Source: a virus. Taken from it: 28,569 bases of DNA. Below, one piece after another: positions 1 through 28,569 of the stretch. Below the pieces are notes generated by a model, which was not told the origin of the DNA, made no database searches, and saw only the letters and a program-made list of their open reading frames with translations. A program made the position numbers and the translations under genes. The stretch lies in the UHGV virus genome UHGV-0000020; one strand, written 5' to 3'. Positions within the stretch are counted from its first letter, which is position 1. Every line of letters begins with the position of its first letter.

Positions 1-240
<240 letters not shown>

Positions 241-362: not shown

Positions 363-391
363 AAAAAAACCTGCCGAAGCAGGTCTTTTTT
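363..391 (-). terminator. Rho-independent terminator downstream of ogr (bidirectional hairpin)
   Basis: A-run, hairpin CCTGC-CGAA-GCAGG (370-383), then T-run; on the minus strand it reads hairpin followed by U-tract immediately after the ogr stop. Confidence 0.7.
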
Positions 392-608
392 ATAGCCACA
401 GTTGATGCTGGGCGTATTTATTCGGATGGGGTGGGGCCGGGTCAATTTCTCCGGGTTTTACAATATATCTTGCCAACGCCTCATGAGTGACAAATGTACA
501 TCCGCAGTTGATGTTTTGACACTGGTGATATCGTTCTTTGGTTTCTGTACTGAGGTAGCGACTTGATCTCGCGTGAGCTGCATCTTGGCATAACGGGCAG
601 TGCATCAT
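390..608 (-). CDS. ogr: Late-gene transcription activator Ogr (zinc-finger)
   Basis: 72 aa from ATG at 608 (MHCPLCQDAAHARSSRY...YHQCQNINCGCTF...), Cys4 motif and length typical of P2 Ogr; GGGGGA Shine-Dalgarno 7 nt upstream. The track ORF starting at 641 is an upstream in-frame extension. Confidence 0.9.
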   Translation of the reverse strand: MMHCPLCQDAAHARSSRYLSTETKERYHQCQNINCGCTFVTHEALARYIVKPGEIDPAPPHPNKYAQHQLWL

Positions 609-685
609 TTTGTTATCCCCCTTTGATAATGTCTGCATCATAGCGCCATGAGTTTCAAATGCAAATCATGATTTGCATTTTCGAG

Positions 686-19920: not shown

Positions 19921-19930
19921 CCCGCCATAA

Positions 19931-19953
19931 GCCGCCGATACAGGCGGCTTTTT
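19931..19953 (+). terminator. Rho-independent terminator after Q
   Basis: GCCGCC-GATACA-GGCGGC hairpin followed by TTTTT, 11 nt after the Q stop. Confidence 0.8.
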
Positions 19954-20095
19954 CGTACCCGCCACCATACGCCCTCAGAGCGACGACACGCCGTCGCCAA
20001 CAACGCCCACCCAATGACTCACTCAACACCATTACAACGCGACAGCGAGCTGCTGAGGCGCGAGAAAATAAATTAAATACCTGCTCCAGCGCGCA

Positions 20096-20114
20096 ATGCT
20101 ATCCCCGCCTCGCC
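20096..20114. other. cos: cos-like site (cohesive-end region)
   Basis: Minus-strand sequence GGCGAGGCGGGGATAGCA closely resembles the P2 19-nt cohesive end as I recall it (GGCGAGGCGGGGAAAGCAC); located just beyond Q as in P2. Confidence 0.7.
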
Positions 20115-20271
20115 TGCCCGCTTTATGGGTCGGTTTTAATGCAGTTGCATGAACACGTCGGAGCCGCGCCAGCACTGGCGGCGCTCACACATGACAGGGG
20201 AGGAAAACGCATGCAATTCGATGCAATAGCGCATGCAGCGCTAAAAAACGGGGAAAAAGCGGAAAAATGAC

Positions 20272-20299
20272 ATAAAAAAACCGGCATACAGGGTGCCGG
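20272..20299 (-). terminator. Rho-independent (bidirectional) terminator closing the minus-strand accessory operon
   Basis: Hairpin CCGGCA-TACAGGG-TGCCGG (20281-20299) flanked by an A-run on the plus strand, giving hairpin plus U-tract on the minus strand directly after the 33-aa peptide ORF. Confidence 0.75.
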
Positions 20300-20323
20300 T
20301 TTGTGCAGGTATTAAGGGGGGGC

Positions 20324-20425
20324 TTACTGGCCGCGCAATGCTCCAATAATGCTGTTCAGGCAACAACTGGCAATAATCATCAGAAAAATTGTCGTCCACG
20401 GATTTTCATAAACAAGCGATAGCAT
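20324..20425 (-). CDS. Predicted 33-aa single-TM peptide (hypothetical)
   Basis: ATG at 20425 preceded by AGAGGA overlapping the stop of the upstream ORF; MLSLVYENPWTTIFLMIIASCCLNSIIGALRGQ-TAA; 20-residue hydrophobic core; followed by a terminator. Below the size cutoff of the ORF track. Confidence 0.4.
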   Translation of the reverse strand: MLSLVYENPWTTIFLMIIASCCLNSIIGALRGQ

Positions 20426-20434
20426 TTTAATCCT

Positions 20435-20638
20435 CTATTTCATCATTCGAATGTGGTTAAGCAGTTCTTTGACGACCGCACCAAGTTCCTCACCGTTTGT
20501 CTGATGCACCAGGCTATCAGTAAATTTATTAACTTCCCGTGAACTCAGGTCGTGATTGGCTGCGAGGCAAATCATATTCTGCGCCCACTTTTGAAGCCAT
20601 TTGTTATCAACAACATCGGAAGGGACAAGACGCAACAT
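20435..20638 (-). CDS. Hypothetical 67-aa protein
   Basis: First ATG at 20638 (MLRLVPSDVVDNKWLQKWAQNMICLAANHDLSSREVNKFTDSLVHQTNGEELGAVVKELLNHIRMMK) with GAGGT 8 nt upstream; the track ORF start at 20647 is GTG. No family recognised. Confidence 0.5.
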   Translation of the reverse strand: MLRLVPSDVVDNKWLQKWAQNMICLAANHDLSSREVNKFTDSLVHQTNGEELGAVVKELLNHIRMMK

Positions 20639-20848
20639 AGCGCACACCTCGATTAGTCATTTTCAGTCGTATTGAAATTGTTTAAGCAAAGGCATGATAT
20701 GCGTGGAGTGGCAGACGACCAATCGATGAGCGGCGTGCTGTATATGGCACAAAGGAAAACGGCTAACGCCTCGCGGGGCTCGTTGTTCAACCCCGCCAGC
20801 CCTGAAATCAAGTTTCAGTACCGGCGGCGTTTGCGCGCTATTCAGATA

Positions 20849-21079
20849 TTAACGCCAGCTTTCGTCTTCCCAGACTTCCTGAAGGATACTATCCAGCGCT
20901 TCCCTGTCTGAATCTTTGTCGACCCCCATCAACTCGACGCCAGTCATTGAGCCTTTTTTTACCGTGACGCGCGTCGACGGAAAAACTGACTGAATTCTTC
21001 GGGTCAATTCACTTTGAAATGCATCAATGACTGGCTGCCCGATTTTCTGGTCTTTGTCTAACGTGATATTGATATTCAT
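20849..21079 (-). CDS. DinI-family protein
   Basis: 76 aa MNINITLDKDQKIGQPVIDAFQSELTRRIQSVFP...ALDSILQEVWEDESWR aligns along its length with E. coli DinI (ELSRRIQ, FP, ILQETWE motifs). Confidence 0.85.
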   Translation of the reverse strand: MNINITLDKDQKIGQPVIDAFQSELTRRIQSVFPSTRVTVKKGSMTGVELMGVDKDSDREALDSILQEVWEDESWR

Positions 21080-21082
21080 AAC

Positions 21083-21265
21083 CTACTCAGCCTCATAAAA
21101 GAAATCTTCTTCGGTCTCGTTATTTTCGCTATTTGCAAGATCGGCAATGAGAGTGAGCGCGAGCTTTAAGTCTGCTGGTTTGCAGTTCGCTATCAGAGAT
21201 ACCTCGGCTATGAATTGCACACAAGCCCACTTTTGCTGCGTTCGGCTGAAATGTTCCCCAACCAT
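21083..21265 (-). CDS. Hypothetical acidic 60-aa protein, first ORF of LexA-controlled operon
   Basis: ATG at 21265 with GGGAGGG Shine-Dalgarno immediately downstream of the LexA box; ends ...ENNETEEDFFYEAE-TAG; in frame with the DinI-like ORF, separated only by TAG plus one codon. The longer track ORF starts at a GTG upstream of the LexA box. Confidence 0.55.
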   Translation of the reverse strand: MVGEHFSRTQQKWACVQFIAEVSLIANCKPADLKLALTLIADLANSENNETEEDFFYEAE

Positions 21266-21285
21266 GAAATCCCTCCCAATAGGGT

Positions 21286-21305
21286 TACTGTATAAATATA
21301 CAGTA
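21286..21305. promoter_or_regulatory. LexA (SOS) box
   Basis: TACTGTATAAATATACAGTA, a 19/20 match to the TACTGTATATATATACAGTA consensus (CTGT-N8-ACAG), 20 nt upstream of the 60-aa ORF start and next to a TTGCCA -35-like hexamer. Confidence 0.8.
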
Positions 21306-21383
21306 GCACGTATTGGCAAACATGGGGAAGAAAAAAAATACACGCCATCAATGTATCTATCTGATATCGATAAACATTAAATG

Positions 21384-25736: not shown

Positions 25737-26102
25737 TCAGTTAAGCGCCTGGGTGTCGGCGGGGATATAACGACAATCGATAGCTTGCTGCGTCAATTTG
25801 TCGCGCCATGCTTTGACGTTGACTAATGTGCGGCCGCGTTTATTGGCCTCTTCTTTGTTTGAGAAATCTTTGGTTGGAGCCTTGAGTAATATGCCTTTGT
25901 CGAGCCATTGCCACACAAGGCGCTCGCTGATTCCACGGGTTGCCGCGAAGTCTTCGACTGTCATAGTGTCTGACATAGCGGAGCGAATCAGGCTTTCCAT
26001 TTTTGGCAGCATTGCATCAACGATGGCCGCTAGCTGAGCGGGTTCTAAACGTAAAGTTTGATTTTGTGAGTTATCAAGCGATGTTGATTTTGCATCTGAC
26101 AT
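25737..26102 (-). CDS. First early-operon gene: putative Cox/Apl-like HTH regulator or excisionase
   Basis: 121 aa ORF immediately downstream of the candidate lytic promoter, with a helix-turn-helix-like segment MTVEDFAATRGISERLVWQWLDKGILL; occupies the cox/apl position. Functional call is by position and motif only. Confidence 0.45.
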   Translation of the reverse strand: MSDAKSTSLDNSQNQTLRLEPAQLAAIVDAMLPKMESLIRSAMSDTMTVEDFAATRGISERLVWQWLDKGILLKAPTKDFSNKEEANKRGRTLVNVKAWRDKLTQQAIDCRYIPADTQALN

Positions 26103-26164
26103 ATCGCATTATCTCCTGTTGTGTGAAATGTGGTGCAGTGGTGTGCATCTTGGTCGATGAACGC

Positions 26165-26194
26165 CACTATAGATCGTAAAAAGTTATCTGTAAA
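26165..26194 (-). promoter_or_regulatory. Candidate early (lytic) sigma70 promoter
   Basis: Minus strand reads TTTACA (26194-26189), a 17-nt spacer, then TATAGT (26170-26165), about 60 nt upstream of the first early ORF; both hexamers overlap the operator-like repeats. Confidence 0.5.
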
Positions 26195-26223: not shown

Positions 26224-27087
26224 ATGAGTTCTGGGCTTGATGTTCAGTGGCGCATCGGTGCGGCAAATGGAGTTTTAGAGCGCTTGATGTCTGCGTATGG
26301 CGTGAAGATGCAGAAAGATTTGGCTGACCTGCTGGGGATTGCAAAACATAGCGTGAGTGGTTGGGTTCAGCGCGATGCGATACCGGGCAATATCATCGTG
26401 AGATGCTGTCTCGATACTGGCGCTGATATCAACTGGCTTGTAAATGGTGAACTTGCAAATGCAAACCTCGATCTCCAGCATAGTCGTTTGAAAGGCAAAG
26501 AACTCTATGACGAAATAATGACTAACGGTGGTAAAACCGTATTACGCCGTATTTTGGATGCGTATGGTTTTACGATGCAAAAAGAACTTGGTGATTTGCT
26601 AGGCATTTCCTCTGGCACCATCAGCACTTGGGTTCGTCGAGAGTTCTTTCCGGGGGATGTAGTAGTCGCCTGTGCACTTGATACCGGAGTTTCCCTTGAG
26701 TGGTTGGCTACTGGCAAAGGGCAAATGCTGGATAGTTCATCGAGAAAAAATGCTATTCAGCAAGTAATAAAAAAATGTCGATTAGAAGCCGGAGAACTCA
26801 AAGATGCAGGTGAGTGGCATCCTGACCCTTCAATGGTTCCCGACGCTCACGACAAGCTCATTTATATAGTTGGTGTTACATCATCTTGGTTAATAGATAA
26901 AGCAGTGCTGAATGTATCTAATGGCAGATGGCTCATAAGCATTGATGGTGCTTTTGACGTTTTCGACGTGATTCGATTACCAGGCGGCAAGGTTCGCCTA
27001 TCAAATAAAAATGCAGAATTTGAATGTAATCTTGCAGATATCACACCAGCCGGGGCTGTTATTTTTACCTTGGAAAAACACATATAA
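26224..27087 (+). CDS. cI: Immunity repressor, 186 CI-type, with tandemly duplicated N-terminal DNA-binding domain
   Basis: 287 aa; two homologous about 65-aa repeats (residues ~13-75 and ~103-166; LERLMSAYGVKMQKDLADLLGI...SGWVQRDAIPG...CCLDTGADINWL vs LRRILDAYGFTMQKELGDLLGI...STWVRREFFPG...CALDTGVSLEWL) resembling the phage 186 CI N-terminal domain, plus a C-terminal domain; divergent from the early operon. Confidence 0.75.
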   Translation: MSSGLDVQWRIGAANGVLERLMSAYGVKMQKDLADLLGIAKHSVSGWVQRDAIPGNIIVRCCLDTGADINWLVNGELANANLDLQHSRLKGKELYDEIMTNGGKTVLRRILDAYGFTMQKELGDLLGISSGTISTWVRREFFPGDVVVACALDTGVSLEWLATGKGQMLDSSSRKNAIQQVIKKCRLEAGELKDAGEWHPDPSMVPDAHDKLIYIVGVTSSWLIDKAVLNVSNGRWLISIDGAFDVFDVIRLPGGKVRLSNKNAEFECNLADITPAGAVIFTLEKHI

Positions 27088-27095
27088 GGATAGTT

Positions 27096-27488
27096 ATGAA
27101 ACGTTCTATTTTTGCAGTTGCTTTGCTCGCTTCTTTCTCAGTATTTGCACAGCCATCTAATTTATCTGTTCTGAAAAAATCGATGAATGAGATGCAACCA
27201 ATTTCAATTGAGGAAAGTGATAGCACCGTTGTGATTGTGCTCAACACCGCAAGCGTTACGCCAGAAATCTACGACACTGCCATTTTAGGTATCTGCAACC
27301 CCGTTTGGTTGAATAAAGAAAACACGGCATACCTTAAAAATACTAAAGAAGTACATGTGCTGAATAAATTTAGTGCCATCGGATATGCACTTGAGAAGCC
27401 ACGCGCGACATGTGAAAAGGCAGGCCAAGAACAACCAAAACAATCCCAAATTACAATTCTTTCAAACACTCATACTCTTAGTCTGTAG
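27096..27488 (+). CDS. Secreted or periplasmic protein of unknown function (moron)
   Basis: 130 aa with Sec-type signal peptide MKRSIFAVALLASFSVFA and likely cleavage before QPS; AAGGA Shine-Dalgarno; 8 nt after the cI stop and upstream of int; AT-rich. Confidence 0.7.
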   Translation: MKRSIFAVALLASFSVFAQPSNLSVLKKSMNEMQPISIEESDSTVVIVLNTASVTPEIYDTAILGICNPVWLNKENTAYLKNTKEVHVLNKFSAIGYALEKPRATCEKAGQEQPKQSQITILSNTHTLSL

Positions 27489-27519: not shown

Positions 27520-28569
27520 ATGACTGTAAGCAAACAAAAAAACGGCAAATGGTTATGTGAGCTCTATCCAAACGGTCGGGAAGGGCGGCGTATACGTCGA
27601 CACTTCAACACCAAAGGTGAGGCCGAGGCTTTTGAGCTTTACACAAAAAATGAAAGTGAAGACAAGCCGTGGCTCGGAAAGAAAGAAGACCGACGGCGTT
27701 TAAGTGAAATTATTCAGCTTTGGCATAATTTACACGGACAGGCTCTAGTCGCGAGCAAATCAAGATTGGCTAAATTGCAGATTGTGTGTAATGGCCTTGG
27801 CGACCCTATCGCATCCCGTCTCACAGCTAAGGATTGGGCTCACTATCGTGATAAACGGCTTCGTGGTGAAATTGATAATGGGTATCACAAAGACCCTGAG
27901 AAATGGATAGCTAAACCGATTACGGTCAACCGTGAACAGCAGTATTTAGAGGCCGTTTTCAATGAGCTAAAGCGGTTAGGGGAATGGTCGCTACCAAACC
28001 CTCTCGATGGCATTCGCGTCTTTAAAGAAGCTGAAAAGGAAATGTCATGGCTAACGATCGAGCAAATACCTCAACTTTTACAGGCATGTCATCAGTATGG
28101 ACACGAAGACCTTACACAGATTGTTGAGATTTGTTTAGCTACCGGCGCGAGATGGAGTGAGGCAGAGCGATTGACTCGTCCGCAGCTTTCGCCCTACAAA
28201 CTGACTTTCACAAAAACGAAAGGCAAAAAAAATCGTACAGTCCCGATCACAAAATGGCTTTACGAAAAATTATCCACACGACAGGGGCGAATGTTTAAGC
28301 CTTGCTATCAGGAGTTCAAAAAAATGCTTTTGCTCACTGATATCGAACTGACGGAAGGCCAGAAAACCCATGTTTTACGCCACACCTTTGGTGCGCATTT
28401 TATGATGAACGGCGGTAACATCCTTGTTCTTCAGAAGATACTTGGTCACGCTAACATTCGTGAAACAATGAAGTATTCGCACTTTGCACCAGACCATCTT
28501 GAGCAGGCTGTTACATTGAATCCCTTGTCGTTAGCTATTGGCGACAAAGTGGCGACAGAGGTTGCGTAA
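27520..28569 (+). CDS. int: Tyrosine integrase (P2 Int family)
   Basis: 349 aa; N-terminal GREGRRIRRHFNTKGEAEAFE arm-binding-like domain and C-terminal catalytic motifs ...LATGARWSEAERL... HVLRHTFGAHFMMNGG...LGHANIRETMKYSHF; TAA at 28567-28569. Confidence 0.92.
   Translation: MTVSKQKNGKWLCELYPNGREGRRIRRHFNTKGEAEAFELYTKNESEDKPWLGKKEDRRRLSEIIQLWHNLHGQALVASKSRLAKLQIVCNGLGDPIASRLTAKDWAHYRDKRLRGEIDNGYHKDPEKWIAKPITVNREQQYLEAVFNELKRLGEWSLPNPLDGIRVFKEAEKEMSWLTIEQIPQLLQACHQYGHEDLTQIVEICLATGARWSEAERLTRPQLSPYKLTFTKTKGKKNRTVPITKWLYEKLSTRQGRMFKPCYQEFKKMLLLTDIELTEGQKTHVLRHTFGAHFMMNGGNILVLQKILGHANIRETMKYSHFAPDHLEQAVTLNPLSLAIGDKVATEVA

What the first reader, a model, noticed from the sequence alone, without database searches (positions are those of the whole stretch)
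27096..27488. Signal-peptide moron between repressor and integrase
A 130-aa AT-rich ORF with a clean Sec signal peptide and two Cys residues lies 8 nt after the repressor gene and before int, so it is probably co-transcribed with the repressor in the lysogen. Genes in this position are usually lysogenic-conversion or superinfection-exclusion functions. No family was recognised by eye.
Basis: partly seen in the sequence, partly recalled or inferred. Interest (0 to 1): 0.55.

Follow-up and report, generated by a model that had tools for sequence, protein, structure and literature searches.

The report
Secreted prophage cargo protein, function unknown
A P2/186-like prophage carries, between its repressor and integrase genes, a real and conserved gene for a small exported protein of an uncharacterised family that travels with this phage group; it most plausibly protects the lysogen's envelope against further phage infection, but no function has been shown.

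Summary
Window 27096..27488 (+) is a 130-aa ORF. It starts 8 nt after cI, behind an AAGGA ribosome-binding site, and ends 31 nt before int. It has a Sec-type signal peptide (MKR / hydrophobic core / VFA|QP), two Cys, and 39.7% GC against 52.9% for the window.

It is a real gene: dN/dS is 0.03-0.19 against orthologues. It belongs to PHROG 3807 (unknown function) and matches nothing in Pfam, NCBIfam, PADLOC or PDB sequences. A confident AlphaFold model (pLDDT 88) has no significant fold match in the PDB.

At least 142 cluster representatives exist. In an alignment of 101 members, 99 have a signal-like N-terminus and 99 have both Cys.

In 69 of 70 surveyed loci the gene lies in a P2-like (Peduoviridae) prophage, always at the tail-gene/lysogeny boundary. 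It occupies three slots: cI-ORF-int (as here), beside ogr, or between ogr and gpD.

Close relatives fill the cI-int slot differently. PSP3 has an unrelated secreted DUF2511 protein, 186 and Fels-2 have nothing, and Vibrio phage K139 has Glo, a periplasmic exclusion protein.

Best reading: a lysogen-expressed periplasmic binding protein, most likely a superinfection-exclusion factor analogous to Glo but not homologous to it. The function is inferred, not shown.

The parts
26085..26113 (+). Candidate pL promoter of the lysogenic operon (-35 TTGATT 26085-26090, 17-nt spacer, -10 CATTAT 26108-26113)
   Evidence: Read from the sequence. It scores 8 of 12, below the scanner's threshold, so one search did not list it. 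Its position relative to the apl-like start codon (26102) matches the annotated pL of phage 186 relative to apl. The block is conserved in PSP3 and a Klebsiella prophage, although that conservation also covers the apl RBS and start codon. This is an inference.
26166..26194 (-). pR-like promoter for the lytic operon (TTTACA-17-TATAGT), convergent with pL
   Evidence: Promoter scan, 10 of 12 matches. Its position next to the cI start matches pR of 186.
26224..27087 (+). cI immunity repressor, 287 aa, two Phage_CI_repr HTH domains plus Phage_CI_C
   Evidence: Pfam E 1e-51 and 4e-19; 80.6% identical to PSP3 CI.
27086..27090 (+). Shine-Dalgarno AAGGA for the ORF, overlapping the cI stop codon
   Evidence: Sequence. 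AGGA/GGAG-like motifs recur at the same place in orthologous loci.
27096..27149 (+). Signal peptide, residues 1-18 (MKRSIFAVALLASFSVFA), predicted SPase I cleavage after VFA
   Evidence: Hydrophobicity and the -3/-1 rule. Ala at -1 in 89% of 101 family members, and 99 of 101 have a signal-like N-terminus. pLDDT is about 50 for residues 1-20.
27150..27488 (+). Mature domain (112 aa, 12.4 kDa, pI 6.1) plus stop codon. Alpha/beta fold: a0-b1-b2-a1-b3-b4-a2-a3-b5. Near-invariant Y59, C67, N90, G96, C106
   Evidence: AlphaFold2 pLDDT 88, pTM 0.78; conservation; PHROG 3807 E 4e-46.
27294..27296 (+). Cys67 codon (in helix 56-72)
   Evidence: Cys in 99% of 101 members; 99 of 101 have both Cys.
27411..27413 (+). 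Cys106 codon (in helix 102-110)
   Evidence: As for Cys67.
27520..28569 (+). Tyrosine integrase, 349 aa, last gene of the operon and of the window
   Evidence: Pfam Int_N E 2e-31 and Phage_integrase E 5e-20.

Best explanation
The ORF is a functional accessory (cargo) gene of a PSP3/186-like P2-family prophage. It is translated from the lysogenic pL transcript (cI-ORF-int), exported by Sec and cleaved after VFA18. It folds in the periplasm into a 112-residue alpha/beta domain, probably stabilised by a C67-C106 disulfide.

It has no catalytic signature. Its C-terminal half has an alpha-beta-beta-alpha-beta topology that weakly resembles periplasmic protein-interaction modules. It therefore most likely acts by binding.

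The most likely role is superinfection exclusion: blocking an early envelope step, such as tail penetration or DNA delivery, of incoming and probably related phages. Vibrio phage K139 Glo, a non-homologous periplasmic protein in the same slot, is reported to do this.

Shown: a real conserved gene; signal-peptide features; family-wide Cys pair; cargo status; near-exclusive residence in Peduoviridae prophages.
Inferred: co-transcription, export, disulfide, binding mode.
Hypothesised: exclusion.

Sub-confidences: real secreted cargo protein about 0.9; expressed from pL in the lysogen about 0.75; superinfection exclusion specifically about 0.35.
For: Gene reality: dN/dS 0.03-0.19 and homologues down to 25-30% identity.

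Export: signal-peptide features. In 101 members, 99 have a signal-like N-terminus, 3 carry lipobox-like motifs and 99 have both Cys. In long relatives the domain lies C-terminal to membrane anchors or a signal peptide.

Operon: 8-nt gap with SD; no terminator-like site between the cI start and the int start. The cI-ORF gap is 7-14 nt in 12 of 13 slot-A loci counting the window. The pL/pR geometry matches 186, whose record annotates a cI-int lysogenic operon ending in a terminator beyond attP.

Cargo status: the slot holds DUF2511 in PSP3 and is empty in 186, Fels-2 and Cartapus. GC is 39.7% against 52.9%.

Phage association: 69 of 70 surveyed loci are P2-like prophages, across three slots. A distant Thauera member lies right after gpD, and KS14 gp9 lies next to gpD.

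Precedent: K139 has cI-orf2-glo-int, with Glo annotated as periplasmic and involved in phage exclusion. Glo is described as a soluble periplasmic sie protein in PMC3952083. The cI-int interval is an antiviral hotspot in K139-like phages (PMC9122126), and the integrase-primase interval holds 8% of P2 defence systems (PMC13586616).

Against: There is no experimental evidence for any member of the family.

There is no homology to Glo (hhalign probability 1%) or to any PADLOC defence model, so the exclusion role rests on position and analogy.

Rare members lie on plasmids outside phages, which fits a general envelope function as well as an anti-phage one.

In Thauera the gene is co-directional with the tail genes, which could mean late expression.

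The signal peptide was judged by heuristics, not by a trained predictor. The disulfide could not be checked in the model.
Confidence: 0.35

Rival explanations
1. Lysogenic-conversion or host-fitness factor unrelated to phages. The periplasmic protein changes an envelope property of the lysogen, such as stress tolerance, metal handling, serum or antimicrobial-peptide resistance, adhesion or signalling, and is kept because it benefits the host.
For: It has the same secreted, lysogen-expressed cargo features. PSP3 carries a DUF2511 protein in the identical slot; from my own knowledge, DUF2511 is the family of E. coli YebY of the copper-linked yobA-yebZ-yebY operon. This suggests the slot also accepts host-physiology genes. 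Members occur on Enterobacter, Pseudomonas, Halomonas and Salmonella plasmids among metabolic and regulatory genes. Weak, non-significant sequence and fold echoes of heavy-metal-associated and CDF C-terminal ferredoxin-like domains were seen.
Against: The family resides overwhelmingly in one phage group across Gamma- and Betaproteobacteria, which argues for a function tied to that phage's biology. No metal-binding motif such as CxxC or His clusters is conserved; the conserved residues are Y59, C67, N90, G96 and C106. The metal-domain hits have E > 0.08.
Confidence: 0.3
2. Orphan periplasmic immunity or inhibitor protein. It neutralises a periplasm-acting toxin or lytic enzyme, such as a peptidoglycan hydrolase, a bacteriocin or tailocin component, or a T6SS effector.
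For: Small, Sec-exported, disulfide-bearing and non-enzymatic proteins carried on mobile elements are typical of such inhibitors (general knowledge). The family is fast-evolving in sequence around a fixed core.
Against: No cognate effector gene is adjacent in any surveyed locus. There is no Pfam, PDB or fold match to Ivy, PliC/MliC, PliG, T4 Spackle or T6SS immunity families.
Confidence: 0.12
3. A non-essential lytic-cycle or virion-related function of P2-like phages, for example a periplasmic helper for tail penetration, lysis timing or release.
For: The gene is persistently adjacent to gpD/ogr in most family members, including distant Thauera (co-directional, 34 nt after gpD) and Burkholderia KS14.
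Against: In enterobacterial slots beside ogr or between ogr and gpD it is oriented against ogr and gpD and is bracketed by strong intrinsic terminators, so it forms an independent unit. Here it lies in the lysogenic operon. It is absent from the 186, PSP3 and Fels-2 regions examined, and P2 itself did not appear among the tblastn matches to phage records. A Sec signal peptide is unusual for virion proteins.
Confidence: 0.08
4. A spurious or decaying ORF with no function.
For: Low GC and no curated family.
Against: Strong purifying selection (dN/dS 0.03-0.19), a conserved SD and spacing, a confident fold, and a family of at least 142 cluster representatives with conserved core residues.
Confidence: 0.02

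Closest known systems
Glo of Vibrio cholerae phage K139 (P2-family, Longwoodvirus)
   Same: It lies in the same operon and slot (cI ... glo-int, immediately upstream of int). It is of similar size (137 aa against 130 aa), has an N-terminal signal peptide and two Cys, and is a soluble periplasmic protein. It is annotated and reported as involved in phage exclusion (PMC3952083).
   Different: No detectable sequence relationship (hhalign probability 1.3%). K139 has an extra gene, orf2 (BRCT), between cI and glo. The Glo fold could not be compared here.
PSP3 gp28 and Salmonella phage SW9/SI22 homologues (DUF2511 family)
   Same: It occupies exactly the same position, 8 nt after an 81%-identical cI and before a 90%-identical int region. 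It is a small secreted protein with a signal peptide and two Cys.
   Different: An unrelated family: Pfam DUF2511 does not match the window ORF and hhalign probability is 0.8%. It is 112 aa and also uncharacterised in phage.
PHROG 3807 / KS14 gp9 / FSL SP-004 gp27 / KSP20 orf1 / ST147-VIM1phi7.1 gp35
   Same: True homologues: PHROG HMM E 4e-46 and tblastn E 1e-29 to 4e-2. BFVD Foldseek matches to KSP20 at TM 0.82. All are in Peduoviridae.
   Different: They sit in other slots, beside ogr or between ogr and gpD, as terminator-insulated units rather than inside the cI-int operon. All are annotated hypothetical.
Membrane or lipid-anchored superinfection-exclusion proteins (TP-J34 Ltp, HK97 gp15, P22 SieA, T4 Imm/Sp, T5 Llp, phi80 Cor)
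   Same: Prophage- or phage-encoded, expressed from the lysogeny module, and acting outside the cytoplasm on incoming phage (PMC3952083; general knowledge).
   Different: No sequence, Pfam or fold match. Most are anchored, whereas this protein is predicted to be soluble.
Classical morons of lambdoid phages (Hendrix/Juhala sense, e.g. lambda bor and lom)
   Same: An extra gene that is present or absent among close relatives, has deviant GC, and is presumed to be expressed in the prophage.
   Different: In this window it has no promoter or terminator of its own and rides on the repressor transcript.

Membership tests
PHROG 3807 (uncharacterised phage protein family) | Full-length match to the family HMM | tested here: met
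   E 4.2e-46, residues 1-128 against profile positions 4-132 of 135.
Sec/SPase I-exported periplasmic protein | Positively charged n-region, hydrophobic h-region of 10-15 residues, small residues at -3/-1, no lipobox Cys | tested here: met
   MKR / SIFAVALLASFSVFA / V-F-A|QP; Kyte-Doolittle 11-residue maximum 2.34; no Cys before residue 67. This is a heuristic; no trained predictor was available.
Sec/SPase I-exported periplasmic protein | Demonstrated export or cleavage | not testable with these tools
   Needs PhoA or Bla fusions, fractionation, or N-terminal sequencing.
Moron / prophage cargo gene | Present in some close relatives and absent or replaced in others | tested here: met
   PSP3 and SW9 have DUF2511 in the slot; 186, Fels-2 and Cartapus have none.
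Moron / prophage cargo gene | Nucleotide composition deviating from the phage backbone | tested here: met
   GC 39.7% against 52.9% for the window; GC3 35.9% against 58-60% in gpA and the tape-measure gene.
Moron / prophage cargo gene | Own promoter and terminator (autonomous unit) | tested here: not met
   No promoter-like or terminator-like site flanks the ORF on the + strand. It is embedded in the cI-int operon. Homologues in other slots do have flanking terminators.
Moron / prophage cargo gene | Expression from the repressed prophage | not testable with these tools
   Inferred from operon structure only.
K139 Glo family | Sequence homology to Glo | tested here: not met
   hhalign of the 39-sequence profile against Glo: probability 1.3%. 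K139 is absent from the tblastn hits.
K139 Glo family | Position between cI and int in the pL operon; small periplasmic protein | tested here: met
   This supports 'works like', not membership.
K139 Glo family | Excludes superinfecting phage at an early step | not testable with these tools
   Needs plating-efficiency and DNA-entry assays.
DUF2511 (PSP3 gp28 type) | Match to Pfam DUF2511 or homology to gp28 | tested here: not met
   No Pfam hit at E <= 1; hhalign probability 0.8%.
Known anti-phage defence systems (PADLOC-DB v2) | Match to any defence-protein HMM | tested here: not met
   0 families at E <= 1.
Periplasmic lysozyme inhibitors (Ivy, PliC/MliC, PliG) and T4 Spackle | Pfam or PDB sequence match, or fold similarity | tested here: not met
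Ring-building-motif / alpha-lytic-protease-prodomain-like periplasmic modules | Significant structural superposition on the alpha-beta-beta-alpha-beta module | tested here: inconclusive

The most novel reading that the evidence does not exclude
PHROG 3807 is a previously unrecognised, structurally new class of soluble periplasmic superinfection-exclusion proteins. It has co-evolved with contractile-tailed P2-like phages across Beta- and Gammaproteobacteria. It would work by binding either the incoming phage's tail-tip or tape-measure apparatus, or a host inner-membrane entry factor. This would explain why the gene stays at the tail-gene/lysogeny boundary while hopping between three insertion slots.
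Probability: 0.3. Interest if true: 0.65.

Novelty: new variant of a known kind. Interest (0 to 1): 0.4.

Why it matters
Periplasm-acting exclusion proteins are poorly understood, and for contractile-tailed P2-like phages the periplasmic stage of genome delivery is largely uncharted. This family is small, apparently soluble and confidently modelled. It is under strong purifying selection, recurs in P2-like prophages of clinically important Enterobacterales (Klebsiella, Enterobacter, Citrobacter, Cronobacter, Salmonella), and has no curated annotation. If it is an exclusion factor it offers a tractable handle on the entry step. It could also affect host range in phage therapy against lysogens. 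If instead it alters envelope physiology, it is a widespread lysogenic-conversion gene. In either case, three unrelated secreted two-Cys proteins (this family, DUF2511 and Glo) occupy the same cI-int slot, which points to a recurrent selective niche for periplasmic cargo expressed with the repressor.

Tried and rejected
- **Curated libraries:** Pfam, NCBIfam and PADLOC scans of the ORF found nothing. A Pfam scan of 101 family members found nothing.
- **PDB sequence searches:** profiles A2 and A3 gave only E > 0.08 echoes of heavy-metal-associated domains, which I rejected as non-significant.
- **AFDB:** the afdb50 library was unavailable, so the AlphaFold database was not searched.
- **Homology to K139 Glo and PSP3 gp28:** rejected by hhalign.
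- **E. coli complete genomes:** the locus is absent; only an int fragment matched.
- **Locus scans:** the genome-contig scan returned only 4 loci. A viral-contig scan with the broad alignment A3 failed for lack of a conserved stretch, and succeeded with A2.
- **Rfam:** no RNA family anywhere in the window.
- **A second family copy beside ogr in this window:** rejected. Only about 80 bp separate the host rplS terminator from ogr, and the 129-aa ORF at 101-490 is a frame artefact over rplS and ogr.
- **Primary literature:** the Nesper et al. 1999 paper on Glo is not held, so Glo's properties are cited second-hand from the GenBank record and PMC3952083.
- **Disulfide geometry:** could not be measured, because model coordinates are not exposed.

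Full report
**1. The observation**

Window 27096..27488 (+) is an ATG-initiated ORF of 130 codons.
- The upstream gene, 26224..27087, is a CI-type repressor with two Phage_CI_repr HTH domains and a Phage_CI_C domain.
- The downstream gene, 27520..28569, is a tyrosine integrase.
- The cI stop (27085-27087) overlaps an AAGGA Shine-Dalgarno (27086-27090), 5 nt before the ATG. The intergenic gaps are 8 nt and 31 nt.
- The protein has exactly two Cys, C67 and C106.
- GC is 39.7% (GC3 35.9%), against 44.9% for cI, 45.3% for int and 52.9% for the window.
- The N-terminus MKR-SIFAVALLASFSVFA|QP has a charged n-region, a hydrophobic core (Kyte-Doolittle 11-residue maximum 2.34) and V-x-A at -3/-1, with no lipobox.

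Every descriptive element of the finding is confirmed. The signal peptide rests on heuristics, because no trained predictor was available.

**2. It is a real gene**

Pairwise Nei-Gojobori dN/dS against orthologues in the same slot is 0.03-0.19. The closest orthologue is 98% identical in protein yet has dS 0.375. The SD and the short distance behind cI recur in orthologous loci: 7-14 nt in 12 of 13 loci counting the window, and 35 nt in one.

**3. Setting**

The window is a PSP3/186-like Peduoviridae prophage. It contains tail genes, gpA, cII (CP76), Fil, an apl-like gene, cI and int.
- Its left edge is the 3' end of host rplS (Ribosomal_L19, E 5e-35), followed by ogr.
- In a metagenomic contig carrying the identical protein, int is followed by DUF2946, PepSY_TM, an OmpA-family gene, a GGDEF gene, DUF4154 and a DAHP-synthase gene.
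- The locus is not in 5,426 complete E. coli genomes.
- The nearest named protein, 98% identical, is from Citrobacter freundii.

**4. Transcription (inferred)**

- The scan found no terminator-like site between the cI start and the int start. The only + strand hit is a 5-bp stem inside int, at chance frequency.
- A pR-like promoter (TTTACA-17-TATAGT, - strand, 26194..26166) lies next to the cI start.
- A candidate pL has -35 TTGATT at 26085-26090 and -10 CATTAT at 26108-26113. It has the same geometry relative to the apl-like start codon (26102) as the annotated pL of phage 186 has to apl. The 186 record annotates a lysogenic operon running from pL through cI and int to a terminator beyond attP.
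- The pL block is conserved in PSP3 and a Klebsiella prophage, though that conservation also covers the apl RBS and start codon.

Co-transcription with cI and int in the lysogen is therefore likely but not shown.

**5. Family**

- Pfam, NCBIfam and PADLOC give nothing. PHROG 3807 ('unknown function') matches at E 4e-46.
- Word-indexed searches found 17 and then 42 relatives, all unnamed or 'hypothetical' and mostly without Pfam domains.
- The exhaustive HMM search of 1.84 billion cluster representatives found 142 at E <= 1e-3.
- Most are 120-140 aa. In an alignment of 101 of them, 99 have a signal-like N-terminus, 3 have lipobox-like motifs and 99 have both Cys. Y59, C67, N90, G96 and C106 are at least 92% conserved, and Ala at -1 of the predicted cleavage site is 89% conserved.
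- None of the 101 matches any Pfam model.
- A few long proteins carry the domain C-terminal to membrane anchors, or to a signal peptide plus pentapeptide repeats. This fits an extracytoplasmic domain.

**6. Structure**

AlphaFold2 with a 39-sequence alignment gives pLDDT 88 and pTM 0.78. Residues 1-20 are disordered. The fold order is a0(21-29), b1, b2, a1(56-72), b3, b4, a2(102-110), a3(114-123), b5.
- Several hits align about 70 residues at about 3 A: alpha-lytic-protease-prodomain-like proteins, the pilotin AspS, FliF, YscD and SpoIIIAH ring-building domains, and CDF C-terminal domains. This matches the a-b-b-a-b order of residues 56-129.
- None of these is significant. Foldseek against the PDB finds nothing better than E 0.39, and BFVD returns only family members. 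The AFDB library was unavailable.
- PDB sequence searches with profiles are negative.

There is no characterised structural relative. The weak echoes suggest a binding module rather than an enzyme.

**7. Genomic distribution**

tblastn against 50,697 phage records hits only Peduoviridae of Serratia, Klebsiella, Salmonella, Yersinia and Burkholderia. I classified 70 loci (66 IMG/VR, 4 GTDB) by tblastn with cI, int, ogr and gpD.

| Slot | Arrangement | Loci |
|---|---|---|
| A | cI-ORF-int; holds the query's closest relatives (98% down to 43% identity) | about 16 |
| B | ORF convergent with ogr, between attP and ogr, so at the prophage edge | about 48 |
| C | between ogr and gpD | 5 |
| none | no marker found | 1 |

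- Examples of slots B and C are annotated in FSL SP-004, P37 and ST147-VIM1phi7.1, and in Enterobacter and Xenorhabdus genomes.
- In the slot B/C homologues checked, a strong intrinsic terminator follows the gene, and in two of the three another precedes it. These are classical autonomous morons.
- A very distant Thauera (Betaproteobacteria) member lies 34 nt after gpD in a P2-like prophage.
- Burkholderia KS14 gp9 is convergent with gpD.
- Rare members are on plasmids.

The family is thus long-standing, mobile cargo of P2-like phages, confined to the tail-gene/lysogeny boundary.

**8. The slot**

Among close relatives the cI-int interval is polymorphic.
- PSP3, vB_EcoM-613R3 and SW9/SI22 carry a 112-aa DUF2511 protein, with its own signal peptide and two Cys, at the same 8-nt distance behind cI.
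- 186, Fels-2 and Cartapus have cI abutting int.
- 4LV2017 has a 349-aa gene in the interval.
- K139 has orf2 and glo, with Glo annotated 'periplasmic protein; involved in phage exclusion'.

Glo is cited as an unusual soluble periplasmic sie protein (PMC3952083). The window ORF is homologous neither to Glo nor to gp28 (hhalign probabilities 1.3% and 0.8%). Rousset et al. identify the cI-int interval of K139-like phages as an antiviral hotspot (PMC9122126). A 2026 survey places 8% of P2 defence systems between integrase and primase, and 3% between integrase and att (PMC13586616).

**9. Interpretation**

Well supported:
- a functional cargo gene;
- a product that is Sec-exported and carries a conserved Cys pair, so a periplasmic disulfide is inferred;
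- placement such that it is made whenever the repressor is made.

Most likely mechanism: a non-enzymatic periplasmic binding protein that interferes with an early envelope step of superinfecting phage, as reported for Glo. I put this specific role at about 0.35.

The main rival is a host-fitness or envelope-conversion role (0.3). The DUF2511 occupant of the same slot and the plasmid-borne members support it. Further rivals are an orphan periplasmic immunity or inhibitor protein (0.12), a non-essential lytic-cycle function suggested by the gpD adjacency (0.08), and a non-functional ORF (0.02, contradicted by selection).

**10. Novelty and score**

The kind of element is known: a prophage-encoded secreted protein expressed from the lysogeny operon. 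The family is already catalogued as PHROG 3807 but is uncharacterised, absent from Pfam and without a structural relative. I therefore rate it a new variant of a known kind.

It is a sound and testable lead rather than a surprise, so interest is 0.4. The most novel reading not excluded is a new structural class of periplasmic exclusion proteins co-evolving with contractile-tailed P2-like phages. I give that probability about 0.3 and interest about 0.65 if true.

Noticed in passing
window 1-239 (+), hairpin about 283-310, ogr 390-641 (-): The window begins inside host rplS (Ribosomal_L19, E 5e-35). A terminator-like hairpin and the prophage's ogr-side junction follow. The prophage therefore sits directly downstream of rplS. 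Only about 80 bp separate the rplS terminator from ogr, so there is no cargo gene at this end.
   Followed up: partly
window 26224-27087 (+): The CI repressor is 287 aa with two tandem Phage_CI_repr HTH domains (Pfam reports 2 stretches), as in PSP3 and SEN1 (81% identical). Phage 186 CI is 192 aa and matches only through a two-piece alignment. This looks like a duplicated DNA-binding domain in this immunity group.
   Followed up: partly
window 19921-21383: The gpQ-gpA interval is the main anti-phage hotspot of P2-like phages. Here it holds only three small ORFs: a DinI-like protein (20849-21079, -, E 2e-18) and two with no Pfam match (20435-20647 and 21083-21343, both -). No recognisable defence system is present.
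   Followed up: partly
L001 2994-3332 (PSP3 gp28); L008 1781-2194 (K139 glo); window 27096-27488: Three mutually unrelated proteins occupy the cI-int slot of different P2-family phages. All are small (112-137 aa), carry an N-terminal signal peptide and have exactly two Cys. This suggests a recurring niche for secreted, disulfide-bonded cargo expressed with the repressor.
   Followed up: partly
L018 4951-4975 and 5447-5470; L005 2909-2927 and 3420-3435; L004 3383-3408: Homologues beside ogr or between ogr and gpD are followed by strong GC-rich intrinsic terminators, and two of the three are also preceded by one. In the prophage state the ogr-side copies become the outermost gene, reading inward from the host flank (for example after pflB in Enterobacter).
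   Followed up: partly
L095 6001-6387 (Thauera humireducens chromosome): A very distant family member lies 34 nt downstream of gpD and in the same direction as the tail genes of a betaproteobacterial P2-like prophage. This raises the possibility of late-operon expression in some lineages.
   Followed up: no
L024 4180-5385 (Escherichia phage Cartapus); L022 4068-4319 (phage 186 orf69): In relatives whose cI abuts int, cargo lies downstream of int instead: a RES-domain protein in Cartapus and Orf69 in 186. Both would still be within the lysogenic transcript, before attP.
   Followed up: no
window 27096-27488 against L029 4001-4393: The ORF and its closest orthologue differ at 2% of residues but at about 30% of synonymous sites (dS 0.375, dN/dS 0.027). 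This is unusually strong protein-level constraint for a cargo gene.
   Followed up: yes
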